Positions 17,206-33,290 of a DNA stretch of 64,000 nt are shown here, in pieces. The translations under genes and the position numbers were made by a program. Positions within the stretch are counted from its first letter, which is position 1. Each line of letters starts with the position of its first letter. The stretch is taken from contig CAZBMQ010000001.1 of NCBI GenBank assembly GCA_964493485.1, positions 43,616 to 107,615 of the forward strand, read 5' to 3'. The notes beneath the pieces are model-generated. The model was not told the DNA's origin, did not search any database, and worked only from the letters and a program-made list of their open reading frames with translations. Origin of the DNA: an uncultured Candidatus Saccharibacteria bacterium. GTDB taxonomy: Bacteria; Patescibacteriota; Minisyncoccia; Minisyncoccales; JANBVM01.

Positions 17206-17275
17206 ATCTTCTATGGTTATAATACCATAAATATCATTATCATTCCAGCTAAATATTTTGGGGGGGGTATTAAAC

Positions 17276-19889: not shown

Positions 19890-22800
19890 TTATATTACCT
19901 TTTCCTTTTTTTGGAAGTACCAGGAAAGGAAGAAGCTAATCAAACCCAACAAAATGAATATCCATACATTCACACAGAAAGGCAATGTCTGTAAATAGCA
20001 TAGTACAGTTAATACCACAAGCAAAAGCATCCATATAAACCAAATCTTAGCTTGCTTCTTTCTTAACTTTCTCCAGTCATCCATAGCTTTTAACAATGAA
20101 TATCCAGCAAATACCAAGATTGACCAGCAAGGAAGACAGAGACAAGCGCCCCCAAACATTCCAGAAAAAAATCCACCAATACTAGCTAAAAGATTAGCAA
20201 AGAAGTTTCCTTCTGCTGGCTGCACTACCTCAGCCATCATTTCCTCTTCTGGAGCTTCAGCTTCTTCTACTACTTCTTCTTCAGAAGAAGTAGCTACAAC
20301 CTCCTCTTCAGGAAGACCTTCCTCTGCAGGAGGTACTTCTTCTGGACCACCCTCTGTTTCAGCAGGAGCGGCTTCTGGAACAGAAGGAAAAGTCTCTTCC
20401 ATCTTGCATAATGTGGAAAAACTATACTCTGGACTAAATACGGGAGGTGAAGCTGAAGAAACAATTCTGTAATAATAGGTAGTACAAGCTTTCAAGTCTG
20501 GAACAAATATGCTGTGCAAACTTACCATTCTAGTATCTGCTGGGTCAGGATAGGCATGAGCATAGCCATAGTAAGGCGGACTAGATTCATCTAAATTATG
20601 AGGTTCGTCTTCTCCAGAATAGATTATCTGGCTTGTAGAATCTAGATTGGTCTGCCAGTTAACAATTACATGATCCTCTGTAATGTCGAAATGATATTCA
20701 TTAAATATCCTCAATTCAGTTGTACCGCCTCTTCCACCAGCACCTTGTCCTCCTTCTCCTGTGCATACTGGATTCTGTGCACAATCTTCATCATCGCAAT
20801 CTGTATAACCATCGCAGTCATCATCTAATTGGTTATCGCAGACCTCTGAAGCTCCGGGATTAATATTAGAATTTGAATCATCGCAATCATCTCCTACCAA
20901 GCATAAAGGATCAGAATAGGCATAATAACCATCTTGGTCTGTATCAATACAACCATGTCCAGTGCCAGTGGTCCATCCTCCGCCGCCTCCTCCGCCGCCT
21001 CCTCCATCTCCAGATCCCTGACAATCAGAATCATTATCATCAACATCTCCATCACAATCATTATCTATTCCATCATCACAAATTTCAGTAGCCCCAGGAT
21101 TTACAGCAGAATTGGTATCATCACAATCTCCATCCTGAGTAGCTGTGTAGTCGCCTGAAGGCTCTGTTAAACATTGGCTATCACCTGTCACCCCATAACC
21201 ATCTTGGTCTGAATCTTTATAATAATTAGTGCATTCAGGCCCCTCTTCACAAGCTGGATTCTGTGCACAATCTTCATCATCGCAATCTGTATAACCATCG
21301 CAGTCATCATCTAATTGGTTGTCGCAGACCTCTGGAATAGGTTCTGAATCTGGAACACATTCTCCCCAAAAACCATCTTGCGTACATGTCTGAGTTCCAG
21401 CTGAACAAATACCTAATTGTCCTGTATCACAAACTCTTTGTTCTCCTGGTTCACACTCTTCTTCAATCATACAATCAGCTGAACAGCCATCACCATTTTC
21501 ATTGTTTCCATCATCACACTCTTCACCTTCTTCTACTATTCCATTGCCGCATACTGGTCCTGGAGGAGTTTCTTGTTCACAGAGGCAGGTATCCAAATTA
21601 CATACTGTGCCTTCTGGACAAGCACATTCATAGCCTATTTCACATTGTTCCTCTCCTTCTAAAACCCCATTACCACAGACTGGAGCACTGCATTCTTCAG
21701 TTGGTTGATAATATAACCTTACCCTGTCCCTATGAACATTGGTAATACTGCAGATATCACCTGTATTTTCTCCAGAGACAAAATTATATTCGTCATTTCC
21801 TGGTTTATCATTTTGAGGATCTCCTTCTACAATACCACACCCTTGGGTATCAGGTTTTTCATAACCTCCATCTGGTCCATTTTGAATCTGATCTATTAAG
21901 GCATTAATAAACTCAATATCAGCCTTAACAGATTCTCTTGTTTCTTTATGGTTAAATCCATAAGCGCTTATCTCAACGAAAAGACCAGTTTCATTTTCTC
22001 CTCTTTGAATATGAAGCCCAGGAACATCATCCTGGAAGGAGCTGACCTGAGGATCTATAATAGGATTTGTTCTATTGTCGGTTGTCAAAGGAATTACAAC
22101 CAAGGTTTGTCCGAAAGGCTCTGAATCATTCCCTACATACACATAATCAGACATATCAGCATGTTTGATAGCTCCCTCAGGATCGTAATTAGCAAAATAG
22201 GTTATATGAACCTTTAAGAAAGATTCACACTCTTCTTCAATCATACAATCAGCTGAACAGCCATCACCATTTTCATTGTTTCCATCATCACACTCTTCAC
22301 CTTCTTCTACTATTCCATTGCCGCATACTGGTCCTGGCTCTGGTTCGCAAAGACAGGTATCAGTATTGCACACATATCCGGGACAACAATCATATCCTAC
22401 CTCACATTCCTCACCCGGTTCTAAAATACCGTTCCCACAAACAGGTTCTGTTTCTTCTTGATAATTACCAAAATCCACATATACAGGTTCTTCACCTCCA
22501 AATGTAATCTCCTGATACAATGGTGTGGAGTTTATCCATCCTGACTGTAAAACCTCCTCTATTCTATAATCACCAGGCTCAACAGAGTTAAAGCAATAAT
22601 TACCATTTTCATCGGTTATATCACTGTCAACAACCTCCCAATCAGAAATACAATGAATAGCTTTTACTCCGTCTACATCAAAACCATCAACAACTCCTGT
22701 AAAATCATTAGGGTCTGTAACATCCTCCAGCTTTAAGTATTTAGCCCAAGCCAACCCATTTAAATCAAATTCACTATCCAAACACCCTATACCTAAATCC

Positions 22801-24107
22801 TCCCATGTACCGTCTGCACCTGTTTGCGAGGCAAAAACATGAACTTTTTCCGGATACTGAGTGCAACTTGGACTGCCATAAGAGGTCTCAACAACCTCTA
22901 TGTCGTTCCCAGCCCCATTAATAATATAATTATCAAATTTCAAAACCAAAGAACCACCAAAGCCCAAAGAAACAAAATTCAATGTATCATTGTATTGAGC
23001 AGGTCCTAAAGCCTTTGAAGAATCTGTTCTTTCTATATCAAGAGGATCTCCATTGCTCTTTGTACCCTGATTATATTCAATAACCTCATCTGCCCATTCT
23101 TCTCCTTCTTCACAAGCAACAGGTTTCTTTAATTGAATTGTCCAACCTGATAACCCTTGCTCTTCATCATTAATACCGTTTTGGTTCTCATCATAAAATT
23201 TTACTCCAGAGATATCACATTGCTGTTCACAAAGGCATGTATCTAAATTACATACTGTGCCTTCTGGGCAAGCACATTCATAGCTTATTTCACACTCTTC
23301 ACCTTCTTCTAAAATTCCGTTTCCGCATACAGGCTCTGGCTCTTGAACAAGAGCGTTAAAGGCAACACAATAATAAGTTTCTCCTAACTGAGGATTTTTA
23401 ATATAGTCGTAATTGTCGAAATTTAAAATATCATCATGACACCACATCTCAGCTGATATATCATTTTGAAGACTCCCTGGAGGATTAGCAAAGGGAATAT
23501 ATCCCTCTTGTAAATTTTCTCTTACCCAAATCTTTGAAGTTCCTTCTTGTAAATCATAAATCTCTACTTTGGCTGGAATTCCTCCTTCACCTGTTGAAGA
23601 ATCAAAATCATTCCACCCCGTGCCCTCTGGAGCAGGACCTATATAATCTCCTTGCTGTTTTTGTCCTTGAGGCCCCCATTGGAATTCCCAACCAGAAGCT
23701 AAAAAACATCTGCCCTGACTATTAGCAACATAGTCAGCCGCAGTATCTGCAGTAATAACCTCAGGCTCTCCCAGCTGTAATCCTTTTAAGCCCCAGTTTG
23801 GCAAATCTTCTTCACTTTCACAAATTACTTTATATGCAATAATCGTAAGTGGTGAGGGCTCTGGTTCCTCAGGTTCGCAGAGACAGGTTTGAGTATTGCA
23901 TACTGTACCCTCTGGACACATACACTCCCAACCTATCTCGCATTCCTCATCAGGATCTAATATGCCATCACCACAATATGGTTCACAAGGATGGCAAGCA
24001 AATGTGTTTCGAAAAAAACCAAAAAGTGCAAAACCTATAATAAAAGTAAAAAATAGTATTGCCTTTAAGTTTTTTTCTGAATTATTTCTTAGAGTTAATT
24101 TTTCCAT
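19890..24107 (-). CDS. 1405-aa Cys-rich giant surface protein
   Basis: N-terminal signal anchor. Repeated CGNG-[IV]-[LV]-E-x-GEECDDGN..DGCS..C modules (myxobacterial-type Cys-rich repeat, by recollection). One Cna-B/SdrD-like unit (DENGNYCFNSVEPGDYRIEE). DNDCDG metal-binding-like repeats and a Gly10 run. Acidic E/P/A/V linker, then C-terminal TM helices. Confidence 0.8.
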   Translation of the reverse strand: MEKLTLRNNSEKNLKAILFFTFIIGFALFGFFRNTFACHPCEPYCGDGILDPDEECEIGWECMCPEGTVCNTQTCLCEPEEPEPSPLTIIAYKVICESEEDLPNWGLKGLQLGEPEVITADTAADYVANSQGRCFLASGWEFQWGPQGQKQQGDYIGPAPEGTGWNDFDSSTGEGGIPAKVEIYDLQEGTSKIWVRENLQEGYIPFANPPGSLQNDISAEMWCHDDILNFDNYDYIKNPQLGETYYCVAFNALVQEPEPVCGNGILEEGEECEISYECACPEGTVCNLDTCLCEQQCDISGVKFYDENQNGINDEEQGLSGWTIQLKKPVACEEGEEWADEVIEYNQGTKSNGDPLDIERTDSSKALGPAQYNDTLNFVSLGFGGSLVLKFDNYIINGAGNDIEVVETSYGSPSCTQYPEKVHVFASQTGADGTWEDLGIGCLDSEFDLNGLAWAKYLKLEDVTDPNDFTGVVDGFDVDGVKAIHCISDWEVVDSDITDENGNYCFNSVEPGDYRIEEVLQSGWINSTPLYQEITFGGEEPVYVDFGNYQEETEPVCGNGILEPGEECEVGYDCCPGYVCNTDTCLCEPEPGPVCGNGIVEEGEECDDGNNENGDGCSADCMIEEECESFLKVHITYFANYDPEGAIKHADMSDYVYVGNDSEPFGQTLVVIPLTTDNRTNPIIDPQVSSFQDDVPGLHIQRGENETGLFVEISAYGFNHKETRESVKADIEFINALIDQIQNGPDGGYEKPDTQGCGIVEGDPQNDKPGNDEYNFVSGENTGDICSITNVHRDRVRLYYQPTEECSAPVCGNGVLEGEEQCEIGYECACPEGTVCNLDTCLCEQETPPGPVCGNGIVEEGEECDDGNNENGDGCSADCMIEEECEPGEQRVCDTGQLGICSAGTQTCTQDGFWGECVPDSEPIPEVCDNQLDDDCDGYTDCDDEDCAQNPACEEGPECTNYYKDSDQDGYGVTGDSQCLTEPSGDYTATQDGDCDDTNSAVNPGATEICDDGIDNDCDGDVDDNDSDCQGSGDGGGGGGGGGGWTTGTGHGCIDTDQDGYYAYSDPLCLVGDDCDDSNSNINPGASEVCDNQLDDDCDGYTDCDDEDCAQNPVCTGEGGQGAGGRGGTTELRIFNEYHFDITEDHVIVNWQTNLDSTSQIIYSGEDEPHNLDESSPPYYGYAHAYPDPADTRMVSLHSIFVPDLKACTTYYYRIVSSASPPVFSPEYSFSTLCKMEETFPSVPEAAPAETEGGPEEVPPAEEGLPEEEVVATSSEEEVVEEAEAPEEEMMAEVVQPAEGNFFANLLASIGGFFSGMFGGACLCLPCWSILVFAGYSLLKAMDDWRKLRKKQAKIWFIWMLLLVVLTVLCYLQTLPFCVNVWIFILLGLISFFLSWYFQKKEKVI
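20768..20848. repeat. 81-nt intragenic repeat, copy 1 (80/81 identical to 21254-21334)
   Basis: Encodes EVCDNQLDDDCDGYTDCDDEDCAQNP. Read directly. Confidence 0.85.
21254..21334. repeat. 81-nt intragenic repeat, copy 2
   Basis: See 20768-20848. Confidence 0.85.
21450..21563. repeat. 114-nt intragenic repeat, copy 1 (apparently identical to 22224-22337)
   Basis: Encodes PGPVCGNGIVEEGEECDDGNNENGDGCSADCMIEEECE. Compared by eye. Confidence 0.85.
22224..22337. repeat. 114-nt intragenic repeat, copy 2
   Basis: See 21450-21563. Confidence 0.85.
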
Positions 24108-24162
24108 AATTTTATAAGTTCTTTTTAGAACTAATTATTTATTTTATTTATGCCACTAATAA

Positions 24163-24192
24163 GTTATAGGCATAAATTACGAGCATTGTCAA
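24163..24192 (-). promoter_or_regulatory. Candidate proximal promoter of the giant gene (TTGACA-N18-TATAAC)
   Basis: -35 is the complement of 24187-24192 and -10 is the complement of 24163-24168, ~55 nt upstream of the ATG at 24107. A second candidate, TTGACA-N17-TAAGAT, lies at 24376-24404. Confidence 0.45.
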
Positions 24193-24404
24193 TAACCTGA
24201 CCTTTGGTTCACAAAATATTTATGAAACACACCAAAAATGGGCTAAAGTTTTAGCTTTGTATAAACAAAGGATAAATGTCTTAATTTTTGTCAATGAGTA
24301 CTTTTTATCTTTAACAGATAAAAAGACAAAGAAGAAAAAGAAAGAACTATTATTCTAAAACTCTAAAGATGATAAATCTTATAAGGAAAAATAAGTATTG
24401 TCAA

Positions 24405-24436
24405 ATTGAATAATCAATTAATTGAATAATCAATTA
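24405..24436. repeat. Perfect tandem 2 x 16 nt ATTGAATAATCAATTA, each an ATTGA-N4-TCAAT palindrome
   Basis: Read directly. Sits just upstream of the distal TTGACA box. Confidence 0.85.
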
Positions 24437-24460
24437 AATTAATTACTTAAATGTCAAAGA

Positions 24461-24521
24461 TTAGGACATTTTAATTCTATGTCCTAATTTTGTCCTATTT
24501 TAGTGTCCTAATTTTGTCCTA
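24461..24521. promoter_or_regulatory. Cluster of five TGTCCTA/TAGGACA motifs (one inverted pair forming a 9-bp hairpin, then GTCCTAATTTTGTCCTA x2)
   Basis: TAGGAC at 24462; GTCCTA at 24481, 24492, 24505 and 24516 (spacings 11, 13, 11). The cluster overlaps the last codons of 24500-27553. Confidence 0.5.
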
Positions 24522-27500
24522 GTTCTTCTCTTTCTGACTATTTTCTTTACTTTTTTGTTTTTGGATTCCTCTTCTGAATCTCGTCTTTTCCAAAATAATA
24601 AAATCAATAAAAGAATAGGAAAAGCTATCCCATACATTTCATCGTCAGAAAGAAATTGTCCAACTGCAGCCAAAAGGTTGCCAAATACATTGTATTCTTT
24701 TTGATAGGAGAATTCGTCAGACATCAAATCATAGTATTTCGATTCGTAAGTTTCCGGTTCTCCTGTCTCTTCCTCTGCTAACACCTCTTGCACTATTGTT
24801 TTTACAAATTTTTCTGCTGGAGGTTCGGGGGTAATTCTTTGTATCTCTTCGTTTATTATCCTTATTTGTTTTTCAATCTCATCTAACTTTTCTTCAATCT
24901 CTTCAATAGAAACACCAGGCTCCTCTTGAGACTCCTCTGGTTCTGTTGCTTCCTCTTCAGAAAGAAGTTCTCCATTTCTTACCTCAATTGTCGTAGAAGC
25001 TATTTCTGAACTTACTGGATTGCCCAGTTGTCCAAAACCAATAGCCTGAGCAGTATTAGTATACAATCCAGATGGAATTTCTCCTCCTATAGCCACAGTG
25101 TAATCTATTGTTATCTCCTCATGTGGTAGTACCACGCCCAAATCCCAAGTATAGGTATTAATCACCTCTGAATCTTCATTTAATATGGTGTCTGTTACAA
25201 CCACATCATATGCTGCCCCATTACTATTATTAAGCAATACAATGGTATAACCTACATTCACAGGAGGAGAAACATAATCAGTATTATTTGTTTTTGTGAT
25301 TTCTAATTTAGGAAAAAACCACAAAAGAGGAACTGTTTTATATACTTCTACAGACAGACTGTCTGAATTATCTGCCTCATTCCAGTCGTCCTCATAACTG
25401 TCTATTATAGCCTCATTAACTAAATAACTATTTCCAGAAGGGATATCAGAATTAACTGTCACAGTATAAGAAACTGAACCAGAACCGCCTGCTGGAACTG
25501 TCCCAATTTCCCACATTATCTCTCCAGGATTATCTATCACAGTACCTCCCCCCTTATCTTTTATTGAAATATATCTTTCATCAAAATCATCTGTGATGAC
25601 AACCCCAGTAGCATCAGCATCCCCGTTGTTTCTATAGGTTAAAGTGTATGTAATAGTACCTCCTGGTTGAGTTGGTGTAGATTGAGTAATAGCGCTCTCA
25701 CCAATCCATAAATCTGGTCTGCCAAAAGCAAGATTGCCTTCCCAAGTGCCAAAAATGTTTATCATTCCCAGCAGCCAGTTTGTTCCAATCAGATCTGAAT
25801 TTAAAATATTTATAAGATTACTGAATACATTGGCATTCCCTGTCTGAATTGCAGCTTCTCCATTCTCAGCAAAAGCTGTATTGTCTCCAGTAGAGACATT
25901 CACTATTACACTATTTTTAATAAATCCTGTATTATCATTGACAATATCTAATACAGTATTTCCTGCCGGATTATTAAAGCCGTCGGAATCTAAATTATAA
26001 ATTTTAATTCCATTTATGTCTTCTGCTATATCTAATCCAGGAGGCAGGCTGAAAATATTTCCCTTCCATCCTCCAAACACATTAATTGCCATTATTAACC
26101 ATCTCCCTCCTACAAAGCTAGTGTTTACCATGTTCATAATATTGCTTTTAACAGTGCTGTCTCCTGTATAAATTACTGCATCCTCTCCTTCAGCTTCGTT
26201 TGTTCCAGTATCAGCATTTATTGAAACTTCGTTCTCCACCACACCTTCTGATGTATTGATTATAGAAGCCCCGCATCCTCCTATACAAGCAGTTGGCTGG
26301 TCTAAAAATCCCTGCACAGAATCTTTATTAGGAAGTATTAAGTCCCCTACCCAGTTATCAAATACATTAATAATTAAATTAGTCCAGTTTGAACCAATAA
26401 CATTGGTATTTAAAAGATTAAAAATACTGGCTGAGACATTTACATCTCCAGTATTGATAAATGCATCTCCATCTTCACTGGTAGCTGTATTCGAACCGCT
26501 TGAACCTTCAATAAACACATTGTTTTCAATTACTCCCGCATTCTCGTTGTGAATATCAAAACAATCTGTTGTAGAAAGCGCATGATTTTCAGAGATAGAG
26601 TTATCTAAAATATCAGAGATATTAATGTCTCCTTGTAAAAATTCAAAAATATTAAATAGAAAATTAGAAAAATCAGAATTGATAATATTTGTATTAACGG
26701 TATTGGTCAAAGCCACTACTAAATTTGTATTTCCAGTATAGATAAAACTGTCTCCTGAGTTACTTTCTGCTGTATTTTCTCCTGTCTCTCCTTCTAACAC
26801 TATATTATTTTCCACTATTGCCTCGTCTTCATTAACAATGCCAATTTCACAATCACATTCACATGGACATTCGCATTCCTCCTCAGGCTCTCCGCATTCG
26901 CATTCTTCTGGACACTCACATCCACAGGTTTCTGTTTCTGTCTCATCAGAATTTACTTCATTTTCAATATCAACTTCCCCATCTGCATCTCCTGTGACTA
27001 CAACACTATCTTCGTTTCCATCTTCATTCCCCTCTTGTAATCCTTCGTCTTCAGGCAAAGTTTCTTGAATATCATCTGAACTTGAGGAATTATTTGTTTC
27101 CTCTGGAGCTGTGTTTTCTGAGCTTGTTGCAGCTGGTGTTTCAAATTCTTCAGTACTCTCTCCTTCATTGTTCTCACTGTTCTCTCCTTCAGAATCCTCC
27201 TGGGCTGTATCTTGATCTGTGCTTCCTGAACCTTCATTATCTTGTGCTTCACTATCAGCGTCGTTTTCTTCTTCTGGAGCTTCTCCATTATCAGACCCGT
27301 TCTCTTCTGGATTCTCCTGGGTATTGCTCTCTTCCCCAGTACTCTCTTCATTTGAATCTCCTCCATTGCCTCCATTATCCATATCTGAATTCTGTTCAGA
27401 GTCTTCGTTTTCATCTGAAACAACGTCTGTATTAATTGAAGACCCTCCGTCTTCTGCTAAAGCAAAAAAGGTGTGATTATTGAAAACCACTAAACTAAAA

Positions 27501-27553
27501 ATAACTACACCCGCCAGAAAGAACCTTTTTAATTTATTTTGTTTTTTGTTCAT
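24500..27553 (-). CDS. 1017-aa secreted surface protein
   Basis: Signal peptide, then an acidic D/E/N/S region and a Cys-rich CxC patch. Four copies of the TG-x-N-x-A / TG-[DN] module. Two DUF11/CARDB-like repeats (ITYTLTYRNNGDADATGVVITD...). Acidic linker, then C-terminal NLLAAVG motif, TM helix and basic tail. Confidence 0.8.
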   Translation of the reverse strand: MNKKQNKLKRFFLAGVVIFSLVVFNNHTFFALAEDGGSSINTDVVSDENEDSEQNSDMDNGGNGGDSNEESTGEESNTQENPEENGSDNGEAPEEENDADSEAQDNEGSGSTDQDTAQEDSEGENSENNEGESTEEFETPAATSSENTAPEETNNSSSSDDIQETLPEDEGLQEGNEDGNEDSVVVTGDADGEVDIENEVNSDETETETCGCECPEECECGEPEEECECPCECDCEIGIVNEDEAIVENNIVLEGETGENTAESNSGDSFIYTGNTNLVVALTNTVNTNIINSDFSNFLFNIFEFLQGDINISDILDNSISENHALSTTDCFDIHNENAGVIENNVFIEGSSGSNTATSEDGDAFINTGDVNVSASIFNLLNTNVIGSNWTNLIINVFDNWVGDLILPNKDSVQGFLDQPTACIGGCGASIINTSEGVVENEVSINADTGTNEAEGEDAVIYTGDSTVKSNIMNMVNTSFVGGRWLIMAINVFGGWKGNIFSLPPGLDIAEDINGIKIYNLDSDGFNNPAGNTVLDIVNDNTGFIKNSVIVNVSTGDNTAFAENGEAAIQTGNANVFSNLINILNSDLIGTNWLLGMINIFGTWEGNLAFGRPDLWIGESAITQSTPTQPGGTITYTLTYRNNGDADATGVVITDDFDERYISIKDKGGGTVIDNPGEIMWEIGTVPAGGSGSVSYTVTVNSDIPSGNSYLVNEAIIDSYEDDWNEADNSDSLSVEVYKTVPLLWFFPKLEITKTNNTDYVSPPVNVGYTIVLLNNSNGAAYDVVVTDTILNEDSEVINTYTWDLGVVLPHEEITIDYTVAIGGEIPSGLYTNTAQAIGFGQLGNPVSSEIASTTIEVRNGELLSEEEATEPEESQEEPGVSIEEIEEKLDEIEKQIRIINEEIQRITPEPPAEKFVKTIVQEVLAEEETGEPETYESKYYDLMSDEFSYQKEYNVFGNLLAAVGQFLSDDEMYGIAFPILLLILLFWKRRDSEEESKNKKVKKIVRKRRTRTKLGH

Positions 27554-27563
27554 AAAATAATTT

Positions 27564-28139
27564 TTACAGATTGATTATATTAATAAGATTTTGAAAAAAT
27601 GATTTTAGATTTTCGACAAGACCTAAATACCATTTTTTAATAAAATTAACTTGTTGTGTTTGAAATGCTTCATTTTCTTTAATACCTACACTGCTTGTTT
27701 CTATTTTCTGTGGGTTTTCTAAACTCACTTCATAAGTGTGTGTGCTCTTTTTTGAATCAATTTCTACTTCTCTTTCAACCTTAATTTCATCACCTTCTCC
27801 ATCTGTCTCAATCTTATTTTCTACTTTCACCTTATTTGCTTCTACCTCAATCTCAATTGGCTCTATCTCTACACCATTAATTACATTTTTTACCTCCACC
27901 TTTATCTCTTTTTTCCCTTCTTTTATTGAAGATGTTCCATTGTCAGCCTCATTCCCGCCTGTATTGGAAGAGACATTGATTTTGTTAATAACTCTAGTTT
28001 CTCCCTCAGTAGTATTATCTCTAGAAAACCAATCATCAAAGAGATCTTCTAGAAAAAACCCCTGACAATATCTTGGAATAATTCCTAAAAACACAAGCAA
28101 GACAAACAATCCAATTTCTTTTTTAATTATTTTTCTCAT
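27564..28139 (-). CDS. 191-aa secreted/anchored protein with one partial TG-x-N-x-A module and E/K/V-rich beta-like repeats
   Basis: N-terminal hydrophobic segment IGLFVLLVFLGIIP, and VINKINVSSNTGGNEADNG. Confidence 0.6.
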   Translation of the reverse strand: MRKIIKKEIGLFVLLVFLGIIPRYCQGFFLEDLFDDWFSRDNTTEGETRVINKINVSSNTGGNEADNGTSSIKEGKKEIKVEVKNVINGVEIEPIEIEVEANKVKVENKIETDGEGDEIKVEREVEIDSKKSTHTYEVSLENPQKIETSSVGIKENEAFQTQQVNFIKKWYLGLVENLKSFFQNLINIINL

Positions 28140-28229
28140 CTTCCTTTGTATGAACCCTTAAACATCGGCTTAAAAGCTCGTACAAAGGAAGAGGCAAGGA
28201 ACCCTCTTCCTTGTGATTAACAGTCAGTT

Positions 28230-29018
28230 CTAGCGTAAAATTCTGTTAATCACAGAGTTAATAACATTCATAACATTTGCCTGTGCCCAAGCATTACCTG
28301 TGAAGATAACACCCCCATTACCGCCTCTGCCGCCATTTCCGCCATCACCACCATTGTTTCTCTGTTCTCCCCATGCACAATGGCCACAACCGCCGCTGTT
28401 TCCATTATGGTTGGCGTCACCAGCATTACCGCCATTGCCGCCGTCCTCACCATTGGCTCCGTTTTGACCGCTTTCAGCATCAACAGATACTGTATTGTAA
28501 ACATCAGCCCAGTCTTTATTGACAACTATTATGTCATCAATACAGCCGCAAGGAGGATATGATGGTCCACATCCGTTTCTTTCAATACAAGAATCGTTGC
28601 ATGGCTCATTTTCAGGAGGACAAGCGCAGGCATTAATCTTGGTATCATTTGTATTGACAAGATTATTTACATTTGCCCGTGCCAAAGCATTCCCAGTATC
28701 CACAAAGCCTCCATTGCCGCCAGCTCCTCCATTTCCGCCATTACCACCATTGTTTCTCTGGTCGCCTCTCCAGTTTCTATTGTAAGAAGCAGAACCAGCA
28801 TTACCGCCGTTGCCGCCATCATCACCATTGGCTTCGTTATAGCCAGTGCTGGCACTTACTTCTACCCTGTTCTTCACTACTGCATCCTTTTTGTTCACAA
28901 CTATAATATCGTGACCAAAAAATCCAAATGGGAAAAACCCATCTCCTGCAAATACAGGTGCAGCAGCAGAAACGAGTAAGGCTGCGGTGGTAAAAACGCC
29001 TAAAATTTTCTTGTTCAT
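28230..29018 (-). CDS. 262-aa secreted Gly/Asn-rich protein, two copies of the shared module each split by a GGNGGNGG tract
   Basis: Signal peptide MNKKILGVFTTAALLVSAAAPVFA. Module halves VVNK..V.N.V.V.A.[ST]G.N.ANG ... NNGG[ND]GGNGG.GGNGG.[IV].TGNA.A.ANV.N, present twice. Confidence 0.7.
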   Translation of the reverse strand: MNKKILGVFTTAALLVSAAAPVFAGDGFFPFGFFGHDIIVVNKKDAVVKNRVEVSASTGYNEANGDDGGNGGNAGSASYNRNWRGDQRNNGGNGGNGGAGGNGGFVDTGNALARANVNNLVNTNDTKINACACPPENEPCNDSCIERNGCGPSYPPCGCIDDIIVVNKDWADVYNTVSVDAESGQNGANGEDGGNGGNAGDANHNGNSGGCGHCAWGEQRNNGGDGGNGGRGGNGGVIFTGNAWAQANVMNVINSVINRILR

Positions 29019-29039
29019 TTTTGTTTTGAAATTATTTAC

Positions 29040-29300
29040 TCCGCCTCAATCCTATATAGGATATCAACGGATCTCTCTGCTATTTTTTCGTTTGCCCGAT
29101 AAGTCTTTCATTTTTGTCAGCAGAGATTTTTTCGGGCAACGCGACCTTTGCTAGGTTCTAATCCCTGAACCTTGCTCCGAACTCCATAGAGCTCGGGACT
29201 CGCCCCGAACCTTTATGGATCGGGGCATGGCACAGGATAGAGCCCAAGCTTTAATGCATTTTGATGCACTAAAGCCAGAGTTCTATTATTGTGCTTTTAA
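29040..29300 (-). promoter_or_regulatory. Structured ~260-nt leader upstream of the Gly/Asn-rich protein gene
   Basis: Stems seen: GCCCCGA/TCGGGGC, CCGARCTC/GAGCTCGG, GCTTTARTGCAT/ATGCACTAAAGC, CGTTTGCCCGA/TCGGGCAACG interleaved with TCTCTGCT/AGCAGAGA (pseudoknot order), and palindrome ATCCTATATAGGAT. Mismatches become G-U only on the minus strand. Confidence 0.5.
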
Positions 29301-29311
29301 AAAAAATAAAA

Positions 29312-29334
29312 AACTTCTCCTTCCGGAAGAAGTT
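29312..29334. terminator. Hairpin AACTTCT(CC-TTCC-GG)AGAAGTT flanked by A-run and T-run
   Basis: Read directly. It lies inside the long minus-strand leader. Confidence 0.5.
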
Positions 29335-29728
29335 CTTTTTGGAACTAGGTATTTATATTTATTTGTATCAATCTGCCATTTCCTCCCTGGCATTTAAATC
29401 TCAATCTAGTCCTCCCCTAAATTGATACAACACTACCTAGTCCTCCTATCTAGATAGCGATGAATTTGTCATGTTTTTCTATTTTATGCTATTTCAAAAA
29501 ATAATGTTAAGCGGGGAAAAATTTTTTGTCCTTATCTTATGTCCTGCTTTTACCTACTCTATCTCTTTTTAAAACAAAAGTCAAGAAAACTCTCAACCAT
29601 AAATAGCCTATTGTCCTAATCTATACTATTTTCGAAAAAAGTCAAGAAAAACATATTCTTTTTAAAATATCTTAATTTCTTTTACAAAATTATTTCTTTC
29701 TATTCTCTTTTTGTTTTTTAAAAACAAA

Positions 29729-29793
29729 AAGGCTGTCTTTGGGCGCCATAACTAAGGAGGAATTCATTTAGTACGGCGCCCAGAGACAGCCTT
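29729..29793. terminator. 24-bp hairpin (19-bp lower stem plus ACTAA/TTAGT) with a 12-nt apical loop GGAGGAATTCAT, flanked by A-run and T-run
   Basis: AAGGCTGTCTTTGGGCGCC (29729-29747) pairs with GGCGCCCAGAGACAGCCTT (29775-29793). There is one T-G (plus sense) or A-C (minus sense) position. Confidence 0.6.
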
Positions 29794-29861
29794 CTTTTTT
29801 CTGTTTACTACGAAATATTTAACTTAATTAAAAACATAGAATTTGCACTCTATGTTTCTTT

Positions 29862-29889
29862 ATTATACCAAGTCAAAAAATTTTGTCAA
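29862..29889 (-). promoter_or_regulatory. Near-consensus promoter TTGACA-N16-TATAAT pointing toward the leader and secreted-protein genes
   Basis: -35 is the complement of 29884-29889 and -10 is the complement of 29862-29867. Confidence 0.6.
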
Positions 29890-29894
29890 TATTT

Positions 29895-29975
29895 CCTGTC
29901 CTATCTTCTAACACCTTGTCCTACCTTATATCATATAATTAGGACAATTTAAAGATAGGACAGGAGTCTTAGGAC
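29895..29975. promoter_or_regulatory. Nested inverted repeats built from TGTCCTA/TAGGACA between the divergent promoters
   Basis: Outer pair CCTGTCCTATC (29895-29905) / GATAGGACAGG (29954-29964), perfect 11 bp. Inner pair TTGTCCTA (29916-29923) / TAGGACAA (29940-29947). An extra TAGGACA lies at 29970. Confidence 0.55.
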
Positions 29976-29983
29976 AAAGTTAT

Positions 29984-30012
29984 TTGACTTTTTTAATTTT
30001 AAAAGGTAATAC
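29984..30012 (+). promoter_or_regulatory. Candidate promoter TTGACT-N17-TAATAC for the GT2 operon
   Basis: -35 at 29984-29989 and -10 at 30007-30012. ATG at 30049. Confidence 0.4.
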
Positions 30013-30048
30013 AAGAATATAAATTCATAATATGTCAAACATAGAAGT

Positions 30049-31383
30049 ATGAAAACATCTCTGATTGAGCTTACAAATGAATTATATCAATTAACTCTTC
30101 TTTTTCCGAAAAAAGAACCTCTGCGCTACAAACTTAGAGAAACAGCTGATGATATCTTGGCAGATTTTATTTCTCTTACTTCCTATTCCTCTATATATCA
30201 ACAAAATGAAATAGTTCTACAAACTAAAAACTTAAAAACAAAACTAGAAATCCTTGATAGTTTTTTGGAAGTCGCAAAGAATCAAAATTGGGTCAATAAA
30301 GAAAATATTTTAAGGTTAAAAGAGAAATATCAAAAATTATTAAAACCTTTCCTGCTTCAAGATATAAAAATTTCAATATTAATCCCCTGCTTCAATGAAG
30401 AAAAATCAATACGAAAATGTATTGAGTCTTGTTTAAACCAAACAAAAAAACCCTATGAAATTGTAGTAGTAGATGATGGAAGCACAGATAGAACTCCGGA
30501 AATATTAAAAAGTTTTGAAGATAAAATAACAGTAGTACGGATTCCTAAAAATACTGGAAATAAAAGCTATGCACAAGAGTTTGGATTAAAATTTATTCAC
30601 GGAGATGTTTTCATTACAACTGATGCAGATACAATATTAGATAAGAATTTTGTAAAAAGAATCTTTTTAGATTTTAAAGATAGAAAAGTAGCAGCAGTGG
30701 CAGGTTATGTAAGGTCCTTAAAATATAATTGGTTAACTACCTGCAGAGAACTGGATTATATTATAGGACAAGATATACATAAATTAGCACAATCATATAT
30801 CAATGCCTTGTTTGTTATACCTGGATGTGCAGGCGCTTTCAGAACAGAAGTGTTTAAAAAATATATAGGTTTTGACCATGACACAGTAACAGAGGACTTA
30901 GATTTTACCTACAAACTTCATGAAAACCAATTCAAAATAATATATGATAAAAAAGCCATAGCATACACTCAAGATCCTCAAAATCTCAAATCCTATATCA
31001 ACCAAATGAAAAGATGGTATAGAGGCGGATGGCAAAACCTAATAAAGCATCTTAAATCCATAAGCAAAAAGGAAGTAAATGTGTTCGAGTTATCCTTAAT
31101 TTATATAGAAGGACTTATGTTCTCAGCTCTGTTGTTTCTAATACCTCTGCTTAATATTAATTTCTTTAGACATTACATCTTCTTTTATTTTGCTGTTTTA
31201 TTTGGATGCGCAGTTTATGGAGCCCTCACAAGAAAAAGGCTTGATTTACTATTCTGTTTCCCTTTTTATTTCTTGATTGTATTTTTAAATGCCTGGATAT
31301 TCTGGGAAGAATTTATTAAAGAAATAATATTTAAAAATGGAGACTTGGCCTGGTTTAAACCAGAAAGAGCCAGAATAATATGA
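30049..31383 (+). CDS. Processive family-2 glycosyltransferase (PgaC/NodC/IcaA-like) fused to an N-terminal ~110-aa four-helix-bundle-like domain
   Basis: GT2 motifs: SILIPCFNEE, VVVDDGSTDRT, TDADT, TEDLDF and QMKRWYRGGWQ (QxxRW), with C-terminal TM helices. The N-terminus (LTNELYQLTLLFPKKEPLRYKLRETADDI) resembles the 23S-IVS-type four-helix-bundle family (recollection). Confidence 0.75.
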   Translation: MKTSLIELTNELYQLTLLFPKKEPLRYKLRETADDILADFISLTSYSSIYQQNEIVLQTKNLKTKLEILDSFLEVAKNQNWVNKENILRLKEKYQKLLKPFLLQDIKISILIPCFNEEKSIRKCIESCLNQTKKPYEIVVVDDGSTDRTPEILKSFEDKITVVRIPKNTGNKSYAQEFGLKFIHGDVFITTDADTILDKNFVKRIFLDFKDRKVAAVAGYVRSLKYNWLTTCRELDYIIGQDIHKLAQSYINALFVIPGCAGAFRTEVFKKYIGFDHDTVTEDLDFTYKLHENQFKIIYDKKAIAYTQDPQNLKSYINQMKRWYRGGWQNLIKHLKSISKKEVNVFELSLIYIEGLMFSALLFLIPLLNINFFRHYIFFYFAVLFGCAVYGALTRKRLDLLFCFPFYFLIVFLNAWIFWEEFIKEIIFKNGDLAWFKPERARII

Positions 31384-31432
31384 ACACATTTGGAAGTCTA
31401 TCTTTAATAATTCATCTGTTTATCATTCTAAT

Positions 31433-32275
31433 ATGCAGAATAAAAAAGTTGACAAAAAGAGGTTAGCTTCATTTTTCATTGGATTAAGTGTTTTTACTCT
31501 CGCTTCTATCAGTGCAAGTTTTACTATTAAAAATTCTTTGGGTGAAGATTCAAATTTAAATTATTTAGCCCTTTTATTCCACAGGTGTGAACCCCTTAAC
31601 TATTTTAAAAAAGAAAAAAACATCATACTTAGAATAGATGACATCCAAGCATTTGCATGGAGGGATATCTCTATAAAAATGGTTAATGAAGCTTTTAAAA
31701 GAAAAATGCCGGTAGTTCTTGCTGTAATACCAGTAGGACTGGAGAAAGATAGAAAAATAGTAAATTATCTAAAGAAAAACCTCTGCAATATTGAGATTGC
31801 TCAGCATGGATGGGATAATAATATTTACAATAATCCTGACATACCTGAGTTCGGAGAATTAAATGAAAAAGAAGCCTATGAAAGAATAATAAAAGGAAAA
31901 AAAGTACTGCAAAAAATAACCAAAGACCCGATAATAACCTTTATCCCTCCAAACAACATATACTCTTCTGGAACCGCAGTGGCATTAGAAAAAACCGGTT
32001 TTAAAATTATCTCAAATGAAGGAAGCGGATATTTTGACTATACAGCTTCTACCTATGATTTTGAACATCATAAATTAACCAAAGTAACAGAGGTAATAAA
32101 TGAATGTAAAGAAGGTCTTTTAAGAAAGAATCTATGCATAATAATGCTGCATCCTCAAGATTATGCAACCGAAGGCAGATTAGATGAAGAGAAATATAAA
32201 AATTATTTAAAATTATTAGACGAATTAGAAAAAATGGATGTTGGGTTTGTTAAAATAAAAGATCTTATTAACTAA
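31433..32275 (+). CDS. Putative polysaccharide deacetylase (DUF2334/PgaB-like), membrane-anchored
   Basis: N-terminal TM. Motifs ILRIDDIQAF...VVLAVIP...IAQHGWDN...MLHPQDY. Lies directly downstream of the GT2 synthase. Confidence 0.55.
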   Translation: MQNKKVDKKRLASFFIGLSVFTLASISASFTIKNSLGEDSNLNYLALLFHRCEPLNYFKKEKNIILRIDDIQAFAWRDISIKMVNEAFKRKMPVVLAVIPVGLEKDRKIVNYLKKNLCNIEIAQHGWDNNIYNNPDIPEFGELNEKEAYERIIKGKKVLQKITKDPIITFIPPNNIYSSGTAVALEKTGFKIISNEGSGYFDYTASTYDFEHHKLTKVTEVINECKEGLLRKNLCIIMLHPQDYATEGRLDEEKYKNYLKLLDELEKMDVGFVKIKDLIN

Positions 32276-33043: not shown

Positions 33044-33119
33044 ATTTCTTTTGCTTTATCTTTTCCTTTATTTCTTTTATTTTGTCTTTTATTTCTTCAA
33101 TTCTTCTTTTATCATTTCC

Positions 33120-33157
33120 ATACGCGTTAATTTCGGATATCCGAAATTAACGCGTAT
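33120..33157. repeat. 38-bp perfect palindrome ATACGCGTTAATTTCGGAT|ATCCGAAATTAACGCGTAT
   Basis: Read directly. Contains the ATTTCGGAT core of the intergenic repeat family. Confidence 0.9.
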
Positions 33158-33189
33158 ACTTTTGAAGCAACCATAAAGTAATTAAAAAT

Positions 33190-33240
33190 TCATACCATAA
33201 AAAATCATACCATAAAAATTCATACCATTTAAAACTCATA
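33190..33240. repeat. TCATACCAT(A)5 direct repeat, 15-nt period, 3.5 copies
   Basis: Copies at 33190, 33205 and 33220, with a partial copy at 33236. Confidence 0.8.
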
Positions 33241-33248
33241 AAGAAATT

Positions 33249-33290
33249 TTCGAATCAGTTAACTAATCATTCGAATCAGTTAACTAATCA
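33249..33290. repeat. Perfect tandem 2 x 21 nt TTCGAATCAGTTAACTAATCA; the second copy contains the copB stop codon
   Basis: Read directly. Each unit contains the palindrome AGTTAACT. Confidence 0.9.

What the first reader, a model, noticed from the sequence alone, without database searches (positions are those of the whole stretch)
19890..32275. Cell-envelope island: giant Cys-rich adhesin, repeat-module proteins and a PNAG-like synthase operon linked by one shared DNA motif
Twelve kb encode four large secreted or anchored proteins, plus a divergent GT2-synthase and deacetylase pair.

The heptamer TGTCCTA/TAGGACA is clustered only in this island's two control regions. There are five copies in 24461-24521, upstream of the giant gene's candidate promoters. 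There are five more in 29895-29975, exactly between the divergent promoters at 29862-29889 (minus) and 29984-30012 (plus). A related palindrome, ATCCTATATAGGAT, sits ~30 nt upstream of the 28230-29018 start.

This suggests a single unidentified DNA-binding factor coordinates surface proteins and exopolysaccharide. No obvious transcription factor is encoded inside the island; the nearest signalling gene is the orphan mini histidine kinase at 32376-33005.

These genes also look GC-richer than their surroundings and carry many alternative-frame ORFs. That may simply reflect their G/E/D/P/C-rich composition.
Basis: partly seen in the sequence, partly recalled or inferred. Interest (0 to 1): 0.6.

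Follow-up and report, generated by a model that had tools for sequence, protein, structure and literature searches.

The report
Repeated TGTCCTA boxes flanking adhesin operon
Two tight clusters of the exact 7-base word TGTCCTA sit in the control regions of surface-adhesin and polysaccharide-synthase genes of an uncultured Parcubacteria (CPR) bacterium; they are most likely docking sites for one still-unidentified DNA-binding regulator, which is an ordinary kind of element in a group whose gene regulation is almost unknown.

Summary
TGTCCTA/TAGGACA occurs 22 times in the window against about 6 expected. Ten exact copies form two clusters, at 24462-24521 and 29897-29976. No 7-mer reached 5 copies per 100 bp in 60 Markov simulations.

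- **Cluster 2** is a ~120-bp imperfect palindrome (29870-29990) between divergent genes. On each side the outermost heptamer lies exactly 7 bp upstream of a TTGAC(A/T) -35 box.
- **Cluster 1** holds two TGTCCTA-ATTT-TGTCCTA pairs (11-bp phasing) plus one inverted copy. It overlaps the last codons of the DUF11/CLIPPER adhesin gene and lies about 60 bp upstream of a promoter-like site for the giant Cys-rich gene.
- **A distant relative** (Nomurabacteria-like) has its only two exact heptamers in 16.7 kb at the same position, after its CLIPPER gene. About 40 other lineages, including the two closest with data, have none.

No regulator gene lies in the 83 kb I could reach. The adjacent sensor-less kinase is EnvZ/PhoR/WalK-like, which weakly suggests an OmpR/PhoB-type partner.

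Best reading: operator or activator boxes for an unknown factor (about 0.5). Hairpin or RNA function, neutral repeat and palindrome growth, and recombination sites remain rivals. The higher GC comes from amino-acid composition.

The parts
24462..24521 (.). Cluster 1. On the plus strand: TAGGACA-N11-TGTCCTA-ATTT-TGTCCTA-TTTTAG-TGTCCTA-ATTT-TGTCCTA. Four direct copies spaced 11/13/11 bp plus one inverted copy. The last two copies overlap the final codons of the CLIPPER gene.
29897..29976 (.). Cluster 2: TGTCCTA x2 (+) then TAGGACA x3, start-to-start spacing 20, 23, 16, 14 bp.
29870..29990 (.). Imperfect ~120-bp palindrome containing cluster 2. It has three nested arm pairs with a common centre near 29930, including the perfect 14-mer TCCTGTCCTATCTT/AAGATAGGACAGGA. 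The outer arms carry the two -35 boxes.
   Evidence: I8, I12; DNA fold -29.6 against -8.2 kcal/mol, z -8.7
29862..29889 (-). Consensus sigma-70-type promoter, TTGACA-16-TATAAT with a TG extension. The heptamer at 29897-29903 lies 7 bp upstream of its -35 box.
   Evidence: sequence
29984..30012 (+). Candidate promoter of the GT2 operon (TTGACT-17-TAATAC, weak -10). The heptamer at 29970-29976 lies 7 bp upstream of its -35 box.
   Evidence: analogous TTGAC(T/G)-16-TATAAG in relatives; not reported by the scan
24376..24404 (-). Candidate promoter for the giant gene (TTGACA-17-TAAGAT, 10/12), 58 bp downstream of the nearest heptamer.
29527..29618 (.). One further exact copy (29612) and two one-mismatch copies (TGTCCTT at 29527, TGTCCTG at 29540) inside the 1030-bp intergenic region, next to weak minus-strand promoter-like sites.
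19890..24107 (-). 1405-aa Cys-rich membrane-anchored surface protein. It has MopE and DUF4215 repeats, myxo-type disulfide repeats and an FN3-like Pur_ac_phosph_N domain.
24500..29018 (-). Three-gene module conserved across Parcubacteria: a 262-aa Gly/Asn-rich secreted protein (28230-29018), a 191-aa secreted protein (27564-28139) and a 1017-aa DUF11/CLIPPER adhesin with a C-terminal TM anchor (24500-27553).
   Evidence: CLIPPER described in PMC12617251
30049..33005 (+). Three genes: a GT2 processive-synthase-like gene with a conserved ~100-aa N-terminal extension (30049-31383), a DUF2334/polysaccharide-deacetylase-like gene (31433-32275) and a 209-aa sensor-less HisKA-class histidine kinase (32376-33005).
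29071..29251 (-). Conserved structured 5' leader RNA upstream of the 262-aa gene. It lies in the same intergenic region as cluster 2 but is a separate element.
29732..29792 (.). Bidirectional terminator-like hairpin about 60-120 nt downstream of the consensus minus promoter. It is exactly inverted in a 99.98%-identical strain.

Best explanation
The exact heptamers TGTCCTA (extended form about TTGTCCTAW) are recognition boxes for one sequence-specific DNA-binding regulator that is not encoded in the reachable 83 kb.

At 29870-29990 the boxes form a mirror-symmetric upstream region shared by two divergent promoters.
- The leftward promoter has a perfect consensus. It drives a short terminated RNA and, by read-through, possibly the leader and the 262/191/CLIPPER adhesin operon.
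- The rightward promoter drives GT2, the deacetylase and the mini-kinase.

At 24462-24521 a second array sits just after the CLIPPER gene and about 60 bp upstream of a promoter-like site for the giant Cys-rich adhesin gene.

Binding of the factor just upstream of the -35 boxes, about -45, -60 and -76 from the inferred start sites, would activate or co-repress these units together. This would couple surface adhesins with exopolysaccharide synthesis.

My most likely candidate class is an OmpR/PhoB-type winged-helix response regulator. It would be fed by the adjacent sensor-less EnvZ/PhoR/WalK-like kinase.

Shown: the clustering, the geometry, and the partial conservation. Inferred: protein binding, the direction of regulation, and the class of the factor.
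For: 1. **Non-random clustering.** 22 copies against 6 expected. There are 5 copies within 100 bp, twice, with the same heptamer, and never in 60 Markov simulations. Only one more copy occurs in a further 18.7 kb of the contig.
2. **Only the 7 bases are shared.** Flanks differ and no other copy of either region exists in 83 kb. It is therefore a short recognition word, not a dispersed repeat.
3. **Promoter geometry.** TAGGACA-N7-TTGACA precedes the 12/12 consensus minus promoter. TAGGACA-N7-TTGACT sits on the plus side.
4. **Helical phasing.** Cluster 1 has two TGTCCTA-ATTT-TGTCCTA units, a 7-bp repeat plus a 4-bp AT spacer, which is one helical turn. From established knowledge, this is the layout of Pho boxes and WalR boxes bound head-to-tail by OmpR/PhoB-family dimers.
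5. **Partial phylogenetic footprint.** In the Nomurabacteria-like locus L129 (46% GC; 262-aa homologue 43% identical) the only two exact heptamers in 16.7 kb lie between the CLIPPER gene and the next large surface genes, next to AAGGACA and TGTCCTT variants. They are about 55 bp upstream of TTGACA-16-TAAAGT. The background rate in 677 kb of module loci is 1 per 20 kb. That gives P about 4e-4 for this region, or about 0.015 after allowing for about 40 lineages.
6. **No RNA family match**.
7. **Kinase class.** The neighbouring 209-aa kinase aligns over residues 5-167 with CreC, SapS, WalK, PhoR, RstB, CpxA and EnvZ models. These kinases normally pair with OmpR/PhoB regulators.
8. **Architecture seen elsewhere.** Irregular arrays of this very heptamer at 11-12-bp spacing with one inverted copy occur in unrelated genomes next to winged-helix or HTH protein genes, namely a Rep3 initiator and a DeoR-HTH/ECF sigma pair. 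This is a usual protein-binding layout.
Against: - No DNA-binding protein gene lies in or near the island. In 83 kb only a Fur-family and a DUF134 HTH protein are present, both tied to other operons, plus a receiver-only response regulator.
- The motif is absent upstream of the GT2 gene in relatives at 65-67% protein identity.
- It is absent from the CLIPPER modules of all other lineages sampled, including the two closest with that region (L135, L136).
- All 11 intergenic copies are perfect 7/7 matches with no degenerate copies inside the two clusters. That is unusual for regulator sites.
- Cluster 1's four direct copies can be derived from two tandem duplications (21-nt unit). Cluster 2 can be derived from an inverted duplication. 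The number of independently selected sites is therefore smaller than ten.
- Spacing in cluster 2 (20, 23, 16, 14 bp) does not follow the 11-bp rule.
- Cluster 1 is 270-410 bp from the giant gene's ATG and overlaps the 3' end of a gene.
- The plus-strand promoter is weak or uncertain.
Confidence: 0.5

Rival explanations
1. The elements work through structure, as hairpin-forming elements (DNA cruciform or RNA stem-loops), not as protein boxes. Cluster 1 would be an intercistronic or 3'-end stem-loop after the CLIPPER gene, acting as a terminator, stabiliser or processing site. Repeated UAGGACA (containing AGGA) could bind an RNA-binding protein of the CsrA type. Cluster 2 would be a long hairpin or attenuator ahead of the GT2 gene.
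For: - The 141-nt region around cluster 2 folds at -29.6 kcal/mol against -8.2 for shuffles, z -8.7. It is followed by a T-run on the plus strand.
- Cluster 1 contains a 13-bp stem, AAGATTAGGACAT/ATGTCCTAATTTT, immediately after the stop codon. It is certainly transcribed with the CLIPPER mRNA.
- In L129 the two heptamers form the base of a stable hairpin, z -4.7, at the same position.
- In transcribed sense orientation the word is mostly (U/A/C)AGGACA.
Against: - Structure alone would not hold the stem sequence constant between genomes of 33% and 46% GC while the loops differ.
- The four tandem copies in cluster 1 are not needed for one hairpin.
- Cluster 1 as RNA has only z -2.9, and no terminator was called there.
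- Cluster 2 lies upstream of both predicted promoters, so it is probably not transcribed.
- The single wobble positions favour the plus strand in cluster 1, which is not the mRNA strand.
- No csrA-like gene was seen in 83 kb.
Confidence: 0.17
2. The arrays are neutral products of local mutation: replication slippage produced the tandem copies and quasi-palindrome template switching produced the inverted copies. One seed word was copied between two nearby AT-rich intergenic regions. They have no dedicated function.
For: - Cluster 1 is a duplicated 21-nt unit that is itself a duplicated 11-nt unit.
- Cluster 2 is an inverted duplication.
- A 61-bp hairpin only 100 bp away is inverted between two 99.98%-identical strains, so template-switch or inversion events are active here.
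- Other intergenic regions also hold arrays and palindromes: (ATGTTTG)x6 at 8078-8120, and a 38-bp perfect palindrome plus 3x and 2x direct repeats at 33120-33291.
- The motif is missing in nearly all relatives.
Against: - Two arrays 5.4 kb apart using the same heptamer, with no other shared sequence, has odds of about 1 in 8000 if they arose independently.
- The mirror placement exactly 7 bp from the two -35 boxes argues against chance.
- The same word recurs at the homologous site of a distant genus.
- Flanks of the copies differ, so the copies are not recent duplicates.
Confidence: 0.13
3. The two clusters are recombination or transposition sites that bracket the 5.4-kb CLIPPER module. They would be arm-type sites of a tyrosine recombinase, multi-site transposon ends, or inverted repeats for a phase-variable inversion.
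For: - The clusters flank exactly the conserved module plus its leader, and run in opposite orientation: four (+) copies on the left and three (-) on the right.
- The module sits in different genomic neighbourhoods in different Parcubacteria.
- Strain differences concentrate in this region.
Against: - No integrase, invertase or transposase is present in 83 kb.
- The two available strains are collinear across the segment.
- The end architectures are not mirror images of each other.
- L129 has the word at only one end of its module.
Confidence: 0.07
4. The arrays are iterons or DnaA-box-like repeats of a replication origin or partition site.
For: - Arrays of short exact repeats in both orientations are typical of origins and centromere-like sites.
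- One unrelated contig has the same heptamer as iterons next to a Rep3 initiator.
Against: - GC skew is uniformly negative across the whole window, with no switch.
- No dnaA, dnaN, rep or parAB genes are nearby.
- The heptamer lacks the TCCACA core of DnaA boxes.
Confidence: 0.02

Closest known systems
Pho box / WalR (YycF) box: binding sites of OmpR/PhoB-family response regulators
   Same: - In cluster 1, 7-bp direct repeats beginning with TGT are separated by a 4-bp AT-rich spacer, giving an 11-bp period.
- The arrays sit upstream of -35 boxes.
- The target genes are cell-envelope genes.
- An EnvZ/PhoR/WalK-like kinase gene is adjacent.
   Different: - The sequence is different: TGTCCTA against CTGTCAT or TGTWAH.
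- Cluster 2 has inverted copies and 14-23-bp spacing.
- No OmpR/PhoB-type regulator gene was found in the reachable DNA.
- All copies are perfect rather than degenerate.
NarL heptamers and Spo0A '0A boxes' (TGTCGAA)
   Same: A 7-bp recognition word is used in several copies, in both orientations and at variable spacing, upstream of the regulated promoters. TGTCCTA shares five of seven positions (T, G, T, C and the final A) with the 0A box.
   Different: - Spo0A is restricted to Firmicutes.
- NarL consensus is TACYYMT.
- No such regulator was identified here.
- The resemblance is recalled from knowledge and was not tested.
Iteron or operator arrays bound by winged-helix proteins (Rep3-type initiators; omega/ParG-type heptad operators)
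   Same: Exact short repeats at about one helical turn, with one inverted copy. The same heptamer is used this way in unrelated contigs L101 and L084.
   Different: - No initiator or partition genes are present here.
- It is not an origin.
- Omega-type heptads are contiguous, whereas these are spaced.
pgaABCD / icaADBC PNAG operons
   Same: A GT2 processive synthase is followed by a polysaccharide-deacetylase-like gene.
   Different: - PgaC_IcaA scores 148 bits against an equivalog cut-off of 422.
- The deacetylase is DUF2334 type.
- There is no PgaA, PgaD or IcaD.
- The synthase carries an extra conserved ~100-aa N-terminal domain.

Membership tests
OmpR/PhoB-type response-regulator binding sites | Head-to-tail direct repeats of 6-7 bp with a 10-11-bp period and an AT-rich 4-5-bp spacer | tested here: inconclusive
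   Met in cluster 1: TGTCCTA-ATTT-TGTCCTA twice. Not met in cluster 2: spacing 20/23/16/14 bp and mixed orientation.
OmpR/PhoB-type response-regulator binding sites | Sites overlap or lie just upstream of the -35 region of regulated promoters | tested here: met
   The proximal heptamers lie 7 bp upstream of TTGACA (29889-29884, minus) and of TTGACT (29984-29989, plus). Cluster 1 is about 58 bp upstream of a 10/12 promoter-like site. The promoters are predictions only.
OmpR/PhoB-type response-regulator binding sites | A cognate winged-helix response regulator and a HisKA kinase are encoded in the genome | tested here: inconclusive
   A HisKA-class mini-kinase is adjacent, with weak NCBIfam hits to CreC, WalK, PhoR and EnvZ. 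The only receiver protein in 83 kb has no DNA-binding domain.
Conserved regulon motif (phylogenetic footprint) | The same motif lies upstream of orthologous genes in related genomes | tested here: inconclusive
   Present at the orthologous intergenic position in L129 and its strain copies. Absent in L123-L125 (GT2) and in L132, L133, L135, L136 and the other module loci.
Replication origin / iterons | A GC-skew switch with adjacent dnaA/dnaN or rep initiator genes | tested here: not met
   Skew is negative throughout the window. No such genes appear.
Invertible or mobile segment bounded by recombination sites | A recombinase or transposase gene, and alternative orientation or junctions among strains | tested here: not met
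   No recombinase is present in 83 kb. The window and the ENA strain are collinear over 20049-41383 except for a 61-bp hairpin.
Dispersed repeat / MITE | Several copies of the whole element in the genome | tested here: not met
   blastn of both cluster regions against 82.7 kb finds only self matches. Only part of the genome was tested.
Known RNA families (Rfam 15) | A score at or above the gathering threshold | tested here: not met
   Only tRNA-Pro at 10347 passes. Permissive scans of both intergenic regions give only sub-threshold hairpin-like hits.
Intrinsic terminator (for cluster 1) | A G+C-rich stem-loop followed by a T-run | tested here: not met
   No terminator-like site in 24000-24700. 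The stem is AT-rich and is followed by TGACATTT.
PNAG synthase operon (PgaC/IcaA + PgaB/IcaB) | An equivalog-level match of the synthase, and the accessory subunits | tested here: not met
   TIGR03937 scores 148 bits against a cut-off of 422.3. The deacetylase matches DUF2334 and only weakly Polysacc_deac_1. No pgaA/pgaD/icaD-like genes are adjacent.

The most novel reading that the evidence does not exclude
The heptamer arrays, the 120-bp palindrome and the strain-variable 61-bp hairpin together form a switch for surface variation in an ultra-small, probably host-attached bacterium. An unknown factor, perhaps an OmpR-type regulator, would drive it through the sensor-less mini-kinase. That kinase might in turn be controlled in trans by the expanded family of stand-alone V4R/H-NOX-fold sensor proteins. 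The factor would bind TGTCCTA boxes to couple fibrillar adhesins with exopolysaccharide. Local inversions would flip an sRNA loop between CCUCC and GGAGG. This would be a first defined cis-regulatory circuit in Patescibacteria.
Probability: 0.1. Interest if true: 0.7.

Novelty: new member of a known kind. Interest (0 to 1): 0.4.

Why it matters
Almost nothing is known about how Patescibacteria (CPR) regulate genes. They have very few transcription factors, and their surface structures are thought to mediate attachment to hosts.

A short, exact, experimentally tractable DNA word marks the control regions of a conserved fibrillar-adhesin module, a giant Cys-rich adhesin and a polysaccharide synthase. 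This gives a concrete handle for finding a regulator by DNA-affinity capture, DAP-seq or a regulon scan.

If the motif is only a local repeat or palindrome, the region is still useful. It shows active quasi-palindrome rearrangement and gene conversion in surface-protein loci between near-identical strains.

Tried and rejected
1. **Genome-collection scan.** I scanned genome contigs for three heptamers with 4-9-nt gaps. The one Parcubacteria hit (L079) is coding, a Cys-Pro-Asn repeat.
2. **A common binder.** Irregular TGTCCTA arrays in other phyla sit next to unrelated genes: a Rep3 initiator, an ECF sigma/DeoR-HTH pair, a Schlafen-HTH protein and BlaR1. No common binder can be named.
3. **Literature.** A search for the heptamer found nothing relevant.
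4. **Alternative-sigma -35 element.** No common -10 lies 16-18 nt downstream of the copies.
5. **oriC, iterons or DUS-like uptake sequence.** Rejected by the skew and by only about two-fold excess outside the clusters.
6. **The ~200-aa paralogous V4R proteins as the missing regulator.** There are six in the window, and one lies directly upstream of GT2 in L123. The AlphaFold model (pLDDT 90) matches H-NOX and MopR sensor folds over its full length and has no HTH. They are sensors, not DNA binders.
7. **Kinase homologues, to find the partner regulator.** None is closer than 28% identity among 5.8 billion proteins.
8. **Linkage of the CLIPPER module with GT2 in L136.** The downstream genes there are unrelated.
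9. **Covariance model of the leader RNA over 807 kb of related loci.** It found only the three sequences it was built from.
10. **Solved structures.** PDB sequence searches for the 262-aa protein and the V4R family gave no meaningful hits.

Full report
**Source and context**

The window comes from an uncultured Patescibacteria/Parcubacteria genome of about 33% GC. The GT2 protein is found unchanged on a 133-kb ENA metagenome contig, and its relatives are all Patescibacteria. Using end genes I extended the readable DNA to 82.7 kb of that contig. GC skew is negative over the whole window, so there is no origin or terminus here.

**Check of the observation**

TGTCCTA occurs 22 times on both strands, against 6.0 +/- 2.4 expected and a maximum of 11 in shuffles.

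Ten copies form two clusters:
- Cluster 1: 24462(-), 24480, 24491, 24504, 24515(+).
- Cluster 2: 29897, 29917(+), 29940, 29956, 29970(-).

One further intergenic copy lies at 29612. One-mismatch copies lie at 29527, 29540 and 24277. All other copies are scattered inside ORFs, including 17373, which encodes Cys-Pro-Lys of a 53-aa zinc-ribbon ORF.

The word was chosen after the fact, so I ran a control for that. I simulated 60 order-3 Markov sequences of 64 kb and recorded the largest number of copies of any 7-mer within 100 bp. The result was 3 or 4, never 5. The real sequence reaches 5 twice with the same word.

Only the heptamer is shared between the copies. Flanks differ, apart from a weak preference for T before it and for A or T followed by pyrimidines after it. 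blastn finds no second copy of either region in 82.7 kb.

**Anatomy of cluster 2**

The region 29870-29990 is an imperfect palindrome with three nested arm pairs around a common centre near 29930:
- Outer arms: AAGTCAAAAAATTTTGTC / GACAAAGTTATTTGACTT.
- Middle arms: the perfect 14-mer TCCTGTCCTATCTT / AAGATAGGACAGGA.
- Inner arms: TTGTCCTA / TAGGACAA.

As single-stranded DNA it folds at -29.6 kcal/mol against -8.2 for shuffles, z -8.7.

The outer arms carry the -35 boxes. On the minus strand there is a 12/12 consensus promoter with a TG extension at 29889-29862, and the heptamer at 29897-29903 is exactly 7 bp upstream of its TTGACA. On the plus strand the heptamer at 29970-29976 is exactly 7 bp upstream of TTGACT (29984-29989).

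The -10 of that plus-strand promoter (TAATAC) is weak and failed the scan. However, the orthologous GT2 genes of two relatives are preceded by TTGAC(T/G)-16-TATAAG.

With the inferred start sites, the heptamer centres fall near -45 and -65 on the left, and near -46, -60 and -76 on the right. These are activator-type positions outside the core promoters.

**Anatomy of cluster 1**

On the strand of the genes it reads TAGGACA-N4-TAGGACA-N6-TAGGACA-N4-TAGGACA-N11-TGTCCTA-N4-TTGACA. This amounts to two units of a 7-bp repeat plus a 4-bp AT spacer (11-bp period), then one inverted copy.

The inverted copy and its neighbour form a 13-bp stem. As RNA the region is only modestly stable, z -2.9. No terminator was called there.

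A 10/12 promoter-like site (TTGACA-17-TAAGAT, 24404-24376) lies 58 bp downstream. The ATG of the giant gene lies 270 bp beyond that.

**The genes**

- **19890-24107(-):** a 1405-aa Cys-rich protein with a signal/anchor sequence. It has MopE, DUF4215 and myxo-type disulfide repeats, an FN3-like Pur_ac_phosph_N domain and C-terminal TM helices.
- **28230-29018, 27564-28139 and 24500-27553(-):** two secreted proteins and a 1017-aa protein with DUF11/CLIPPER domains and a C-terminal anchor. CLIPPER is an isopeptide-bonded stalk domain of fibrillar adhesins (PMC12617251).
- **30049-31383(+):** a GT2 synthase of the PgaC/NodC/chitin-synthase type. It scores far below the PgaC equivalog cut-off (148 against 422 bits). 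It carries a ~100-aa N-terminal extension that is conserved in its two closest relatives and absent from most homologues.
- **31433-32275(+):** a DUF2334/deacetylase-like protein.
- **32376-33005(+):** a 209-aa kinase without a sensor or TM region. It has weak full-length similarity to CreC, SapS, WalK, PhoR, RstB, CpxA and EnvZ models and no close homologue anywhere.

The higher GC of the surface genes lies in codon positions 1 and 2 only. GC3 is 0.22-0.25 against 0.27 +/- 0.04 for 46 other genes. The cause is therefore composition, not foreign origin.

**Comparative evidence**

The order [262-like][191-like][CLIPPER ~1000 aa] is a conserved Parcubacteria module. It is present in L129/L130, L132 and L133, and CLIPPER-family relatives were found in 59 further metagenome loci. 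It lies in different neighbourhoods in different genomes.

The GT2-deacetylase pair is conserved separately and is not next to the module elsewhere. The 'island' is therefore a juxtaposition specific to this genome.

One relative shares the motif. In L129 (46% GC) the only two exact heptamers in 16.7 kb lie in the 580-bp gap after the CLIPPER gene. They lie upstream of the next large surface genes, one of which shares the FN3-like domain with the giant protein.

The arrangement there is AAGGACA-N7-TAGGACA-N31-TGTCCTA-N11-TTGACA. A TGTCCTT lies just after the stop codon, and a 10/12 promoter-like site lies about 55 bp downstream.

The background is 33 heptamers in 677 kb of module loci. On that basis, two in that gap has P of about 4e-4, or roughly 0.015 after allowing for about 40 independent lineages. 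L130, L148, L150 and L175 are the same species, so this is one extra lineage, not five.

The negative evidence is as follows:
- There is no heptamer upstream of GT2 in relatives at 65-67% identity.
- There are none, and no other heptamer arrays, in the closest CLIPPER relatives that include the region (L135, L136).
- No cluster appears under a relaxed hexamer search in any other lineage.
- The two near-identical strains are identical at both clusters, which is uninformative.

**Who binds?**

No DNA-binding protein is encoded in the island. Within 83 kb there are three candidates:
- A Fur-family protein next to a Znu-type transporter.
- A DUF134 HTH protein next to Fe-S/NifB-like genes.
- A receiver-only response regulator.

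The expanded ~200-aa V4R family was a candidate, because one member sits directly upstream of GT2 in L123. Its high-confidence model matches H-NOX and MopR sensor domains over its full length and has no HTH. These proteins are ligand sensors.

Stand-alone H-NOX sensors are known to control sensor-less kinases in trans. The mini-kinase could therefore be their output. This is inference only.

Two things point to an OmpR/PhoB-type regulator encoded elsewhere: the HisKA class of the kinase and the 7+4-bp direct-repeat units of cluster 1. Cluster 2's spacing does not fit that rule, so I hold this identification loosely.

**Explanations weighed**

| Explanation | Confidence | Main reason |
|---|---|---|
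| Protein boxes for one regulator | about 0.5 | Best accounts for the shared exact word, the mirror placement at the -35 boxes, the helical phasing and the recurrence in L129 |
| Structural or RNA role | about 0.17 | Supported by the strong palindrome and the conserved hairpin position, but does not explain sequence constancy or the tandem copies |
| Neutral slippage or template-switch origin | about 0.13 | Supported by the internal duplication structure, nearby inversion activity and other arrays in this genome, but does not explain the same word at two loci and in another genus |
| Recombination or transposon ends | about 0.07 | No recombinase and no rearranged strain |
| Origin or iterons | about 0.02 | Contradicted by the skew and the gene content |

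**Other features of the 1030-bp intergenic region**

These bear on 'control' of the operon:
- A conserved, highly structured leader lies on the gene strand at 29071-29251. The wider stretch 29019-29300 folds with z -6.7. It is 76-78% identical to the sequence upstream of the 262-like genes in L131 and L149. It has compensatory changes in two helices.
It is not conserved in L131.
- Two terminator-like hairpins lie at 29338-29308 and 29732-29792.
- The consensus minus promoter would first produce a ~135-nt RNA ending at the second hairpin.

**Verdict**

This is a real, non-random cis element. It is most probably a set of operator or activator boxes for an unidentified regulator that wires adhesin genes and a polysaccharide synthase together in this lineage. 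It is a new instance of a familiar kind of element. Its interest is moderate because it lies in a phylum where regulation is uncharted and because it is directly testable.

Noticed in passing
window 29071-29251 (minus strand); L131:15-146; L149:287-428: A conserved, GC-rich, highly structured 5' leader lies upstream of the 262-aa surface-protein gene. The wider stretch 29019-29300 folds with z -6.7. It is 76-78% identical in two relatives. Helices show compensatory changes: GCCCGA/TCGGGC against ACCCAA/TTGGGT against GGTCGG/CCGGCC, and CTCTGCT/AGCAGAG against TTCTGCC/GGCAGAA. It has no Rfam match. A covariance model found only these three copies in 807 kb of related loci. It is a candidate lineage-specific cis-regulatory RNA.
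   Followed up: partly
window 29732-29792; L001:9684-9744: A 61-bp terminator-like hairpin (17-bp arms, 27-nt loop containing TAAGGAGGAATTC) is exactly inverted in a strain that is otherwise 99.98% identical, while the flanks stay collinear. The inversion swaps GGAGG and CCUCC in the loop of whatever RNA is made from the consensus promoter at 29889-29862.
   Followed up: partly
window 20577-20835, 21433-22335, 25736-25799: Differences between the window and the ENA strain are clustered in internal repeats of the giant Cys-rich gene and of the CLIPPER gene. There are 34 mismatches in the 21-kb stretch that spans the island, against 2 per 10-21 kb elsewhere. This looks like gene conversion among repeats.
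   Followed up: partly
window 16606-17277, 52090-52683, 56537-57139, 57807-58409, 58439-59041, 60290-60889: There are six paralogues of a ~200-aa V4R-domain protein. The AlphaFold model (pLDDT 90) matches H-NOX and MopR sensor folds at TM about 0.7. One family member (57807-58409) lies next to a SpoIIAA-like/DUF7793 protein (57393-57785); a second such protein is at 39036-39443. In relative L123 a paralogue sits directly upstream of the GT2-deacetylase pair. This is an unusual expansion of stand-alone sensors in a tiny genome.
   Followed up: partly
window 33110-33291: The gap between the convergent kinase and P-type ATPase genes holds three repeat features: a 38-bp perfect palindrome (ATACGCGTTAATTTCGGATATCCGAAATTAACGCGTAT), three TCATACCAT(A/T)AA repeats at 14-15-bp spacing, and two 21-bp direct repeats (TTCGAATCAGTTAACTAATCA).
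   Followed up: no
window 8078-8120: A tandem heptamer repeat, (ATGTTTG) x about 6, fills the short gap between the rpsG and fusA genes.
   Followed up: no
window 30049-30350: The GT2 synthase carries a ~100-aa N-terminal extension. It is conserved in the two closest relatives (442 aa) but missing from most of the ~340-aa Patescibacteria homologues. No Pfam match.
   Followed up: no
window 24500-29018; L129, L132, L133, L134-L192: The gene order [Gly/Asn-rich ~230-280 aa][~160-225 aa][CLIPPER ~950-1030 aa] is conserved in L129, L132 and L133, and 59 metagenome loci encode CLIPPER-family relatives. All three proteins share a repeat of the type 'VxNxVxVxAxTGxNxA...TGxAxAxxxxxNxxNTN'. It has no solved relative and may form a common surface fibre.
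   Followed up: partly
window 17332-17493 (minus): A 53-aa double CxxC zinc-ribbon ORF lies between the NUDIX gene and a V4R paralogue. The TGTCCTA copy at 17373 is part of its coding sequence.
   Followed up: no
L132 9140-9200 and 9920-9960; L133 9850-9870; window about 29142-29152: The short word AAAGGTCG(C/A) recurs upstream of 262-like genes in distant module loci as well as in the conserved leader. It may be the most widely conserved piece of that leader.
   Followed up: no
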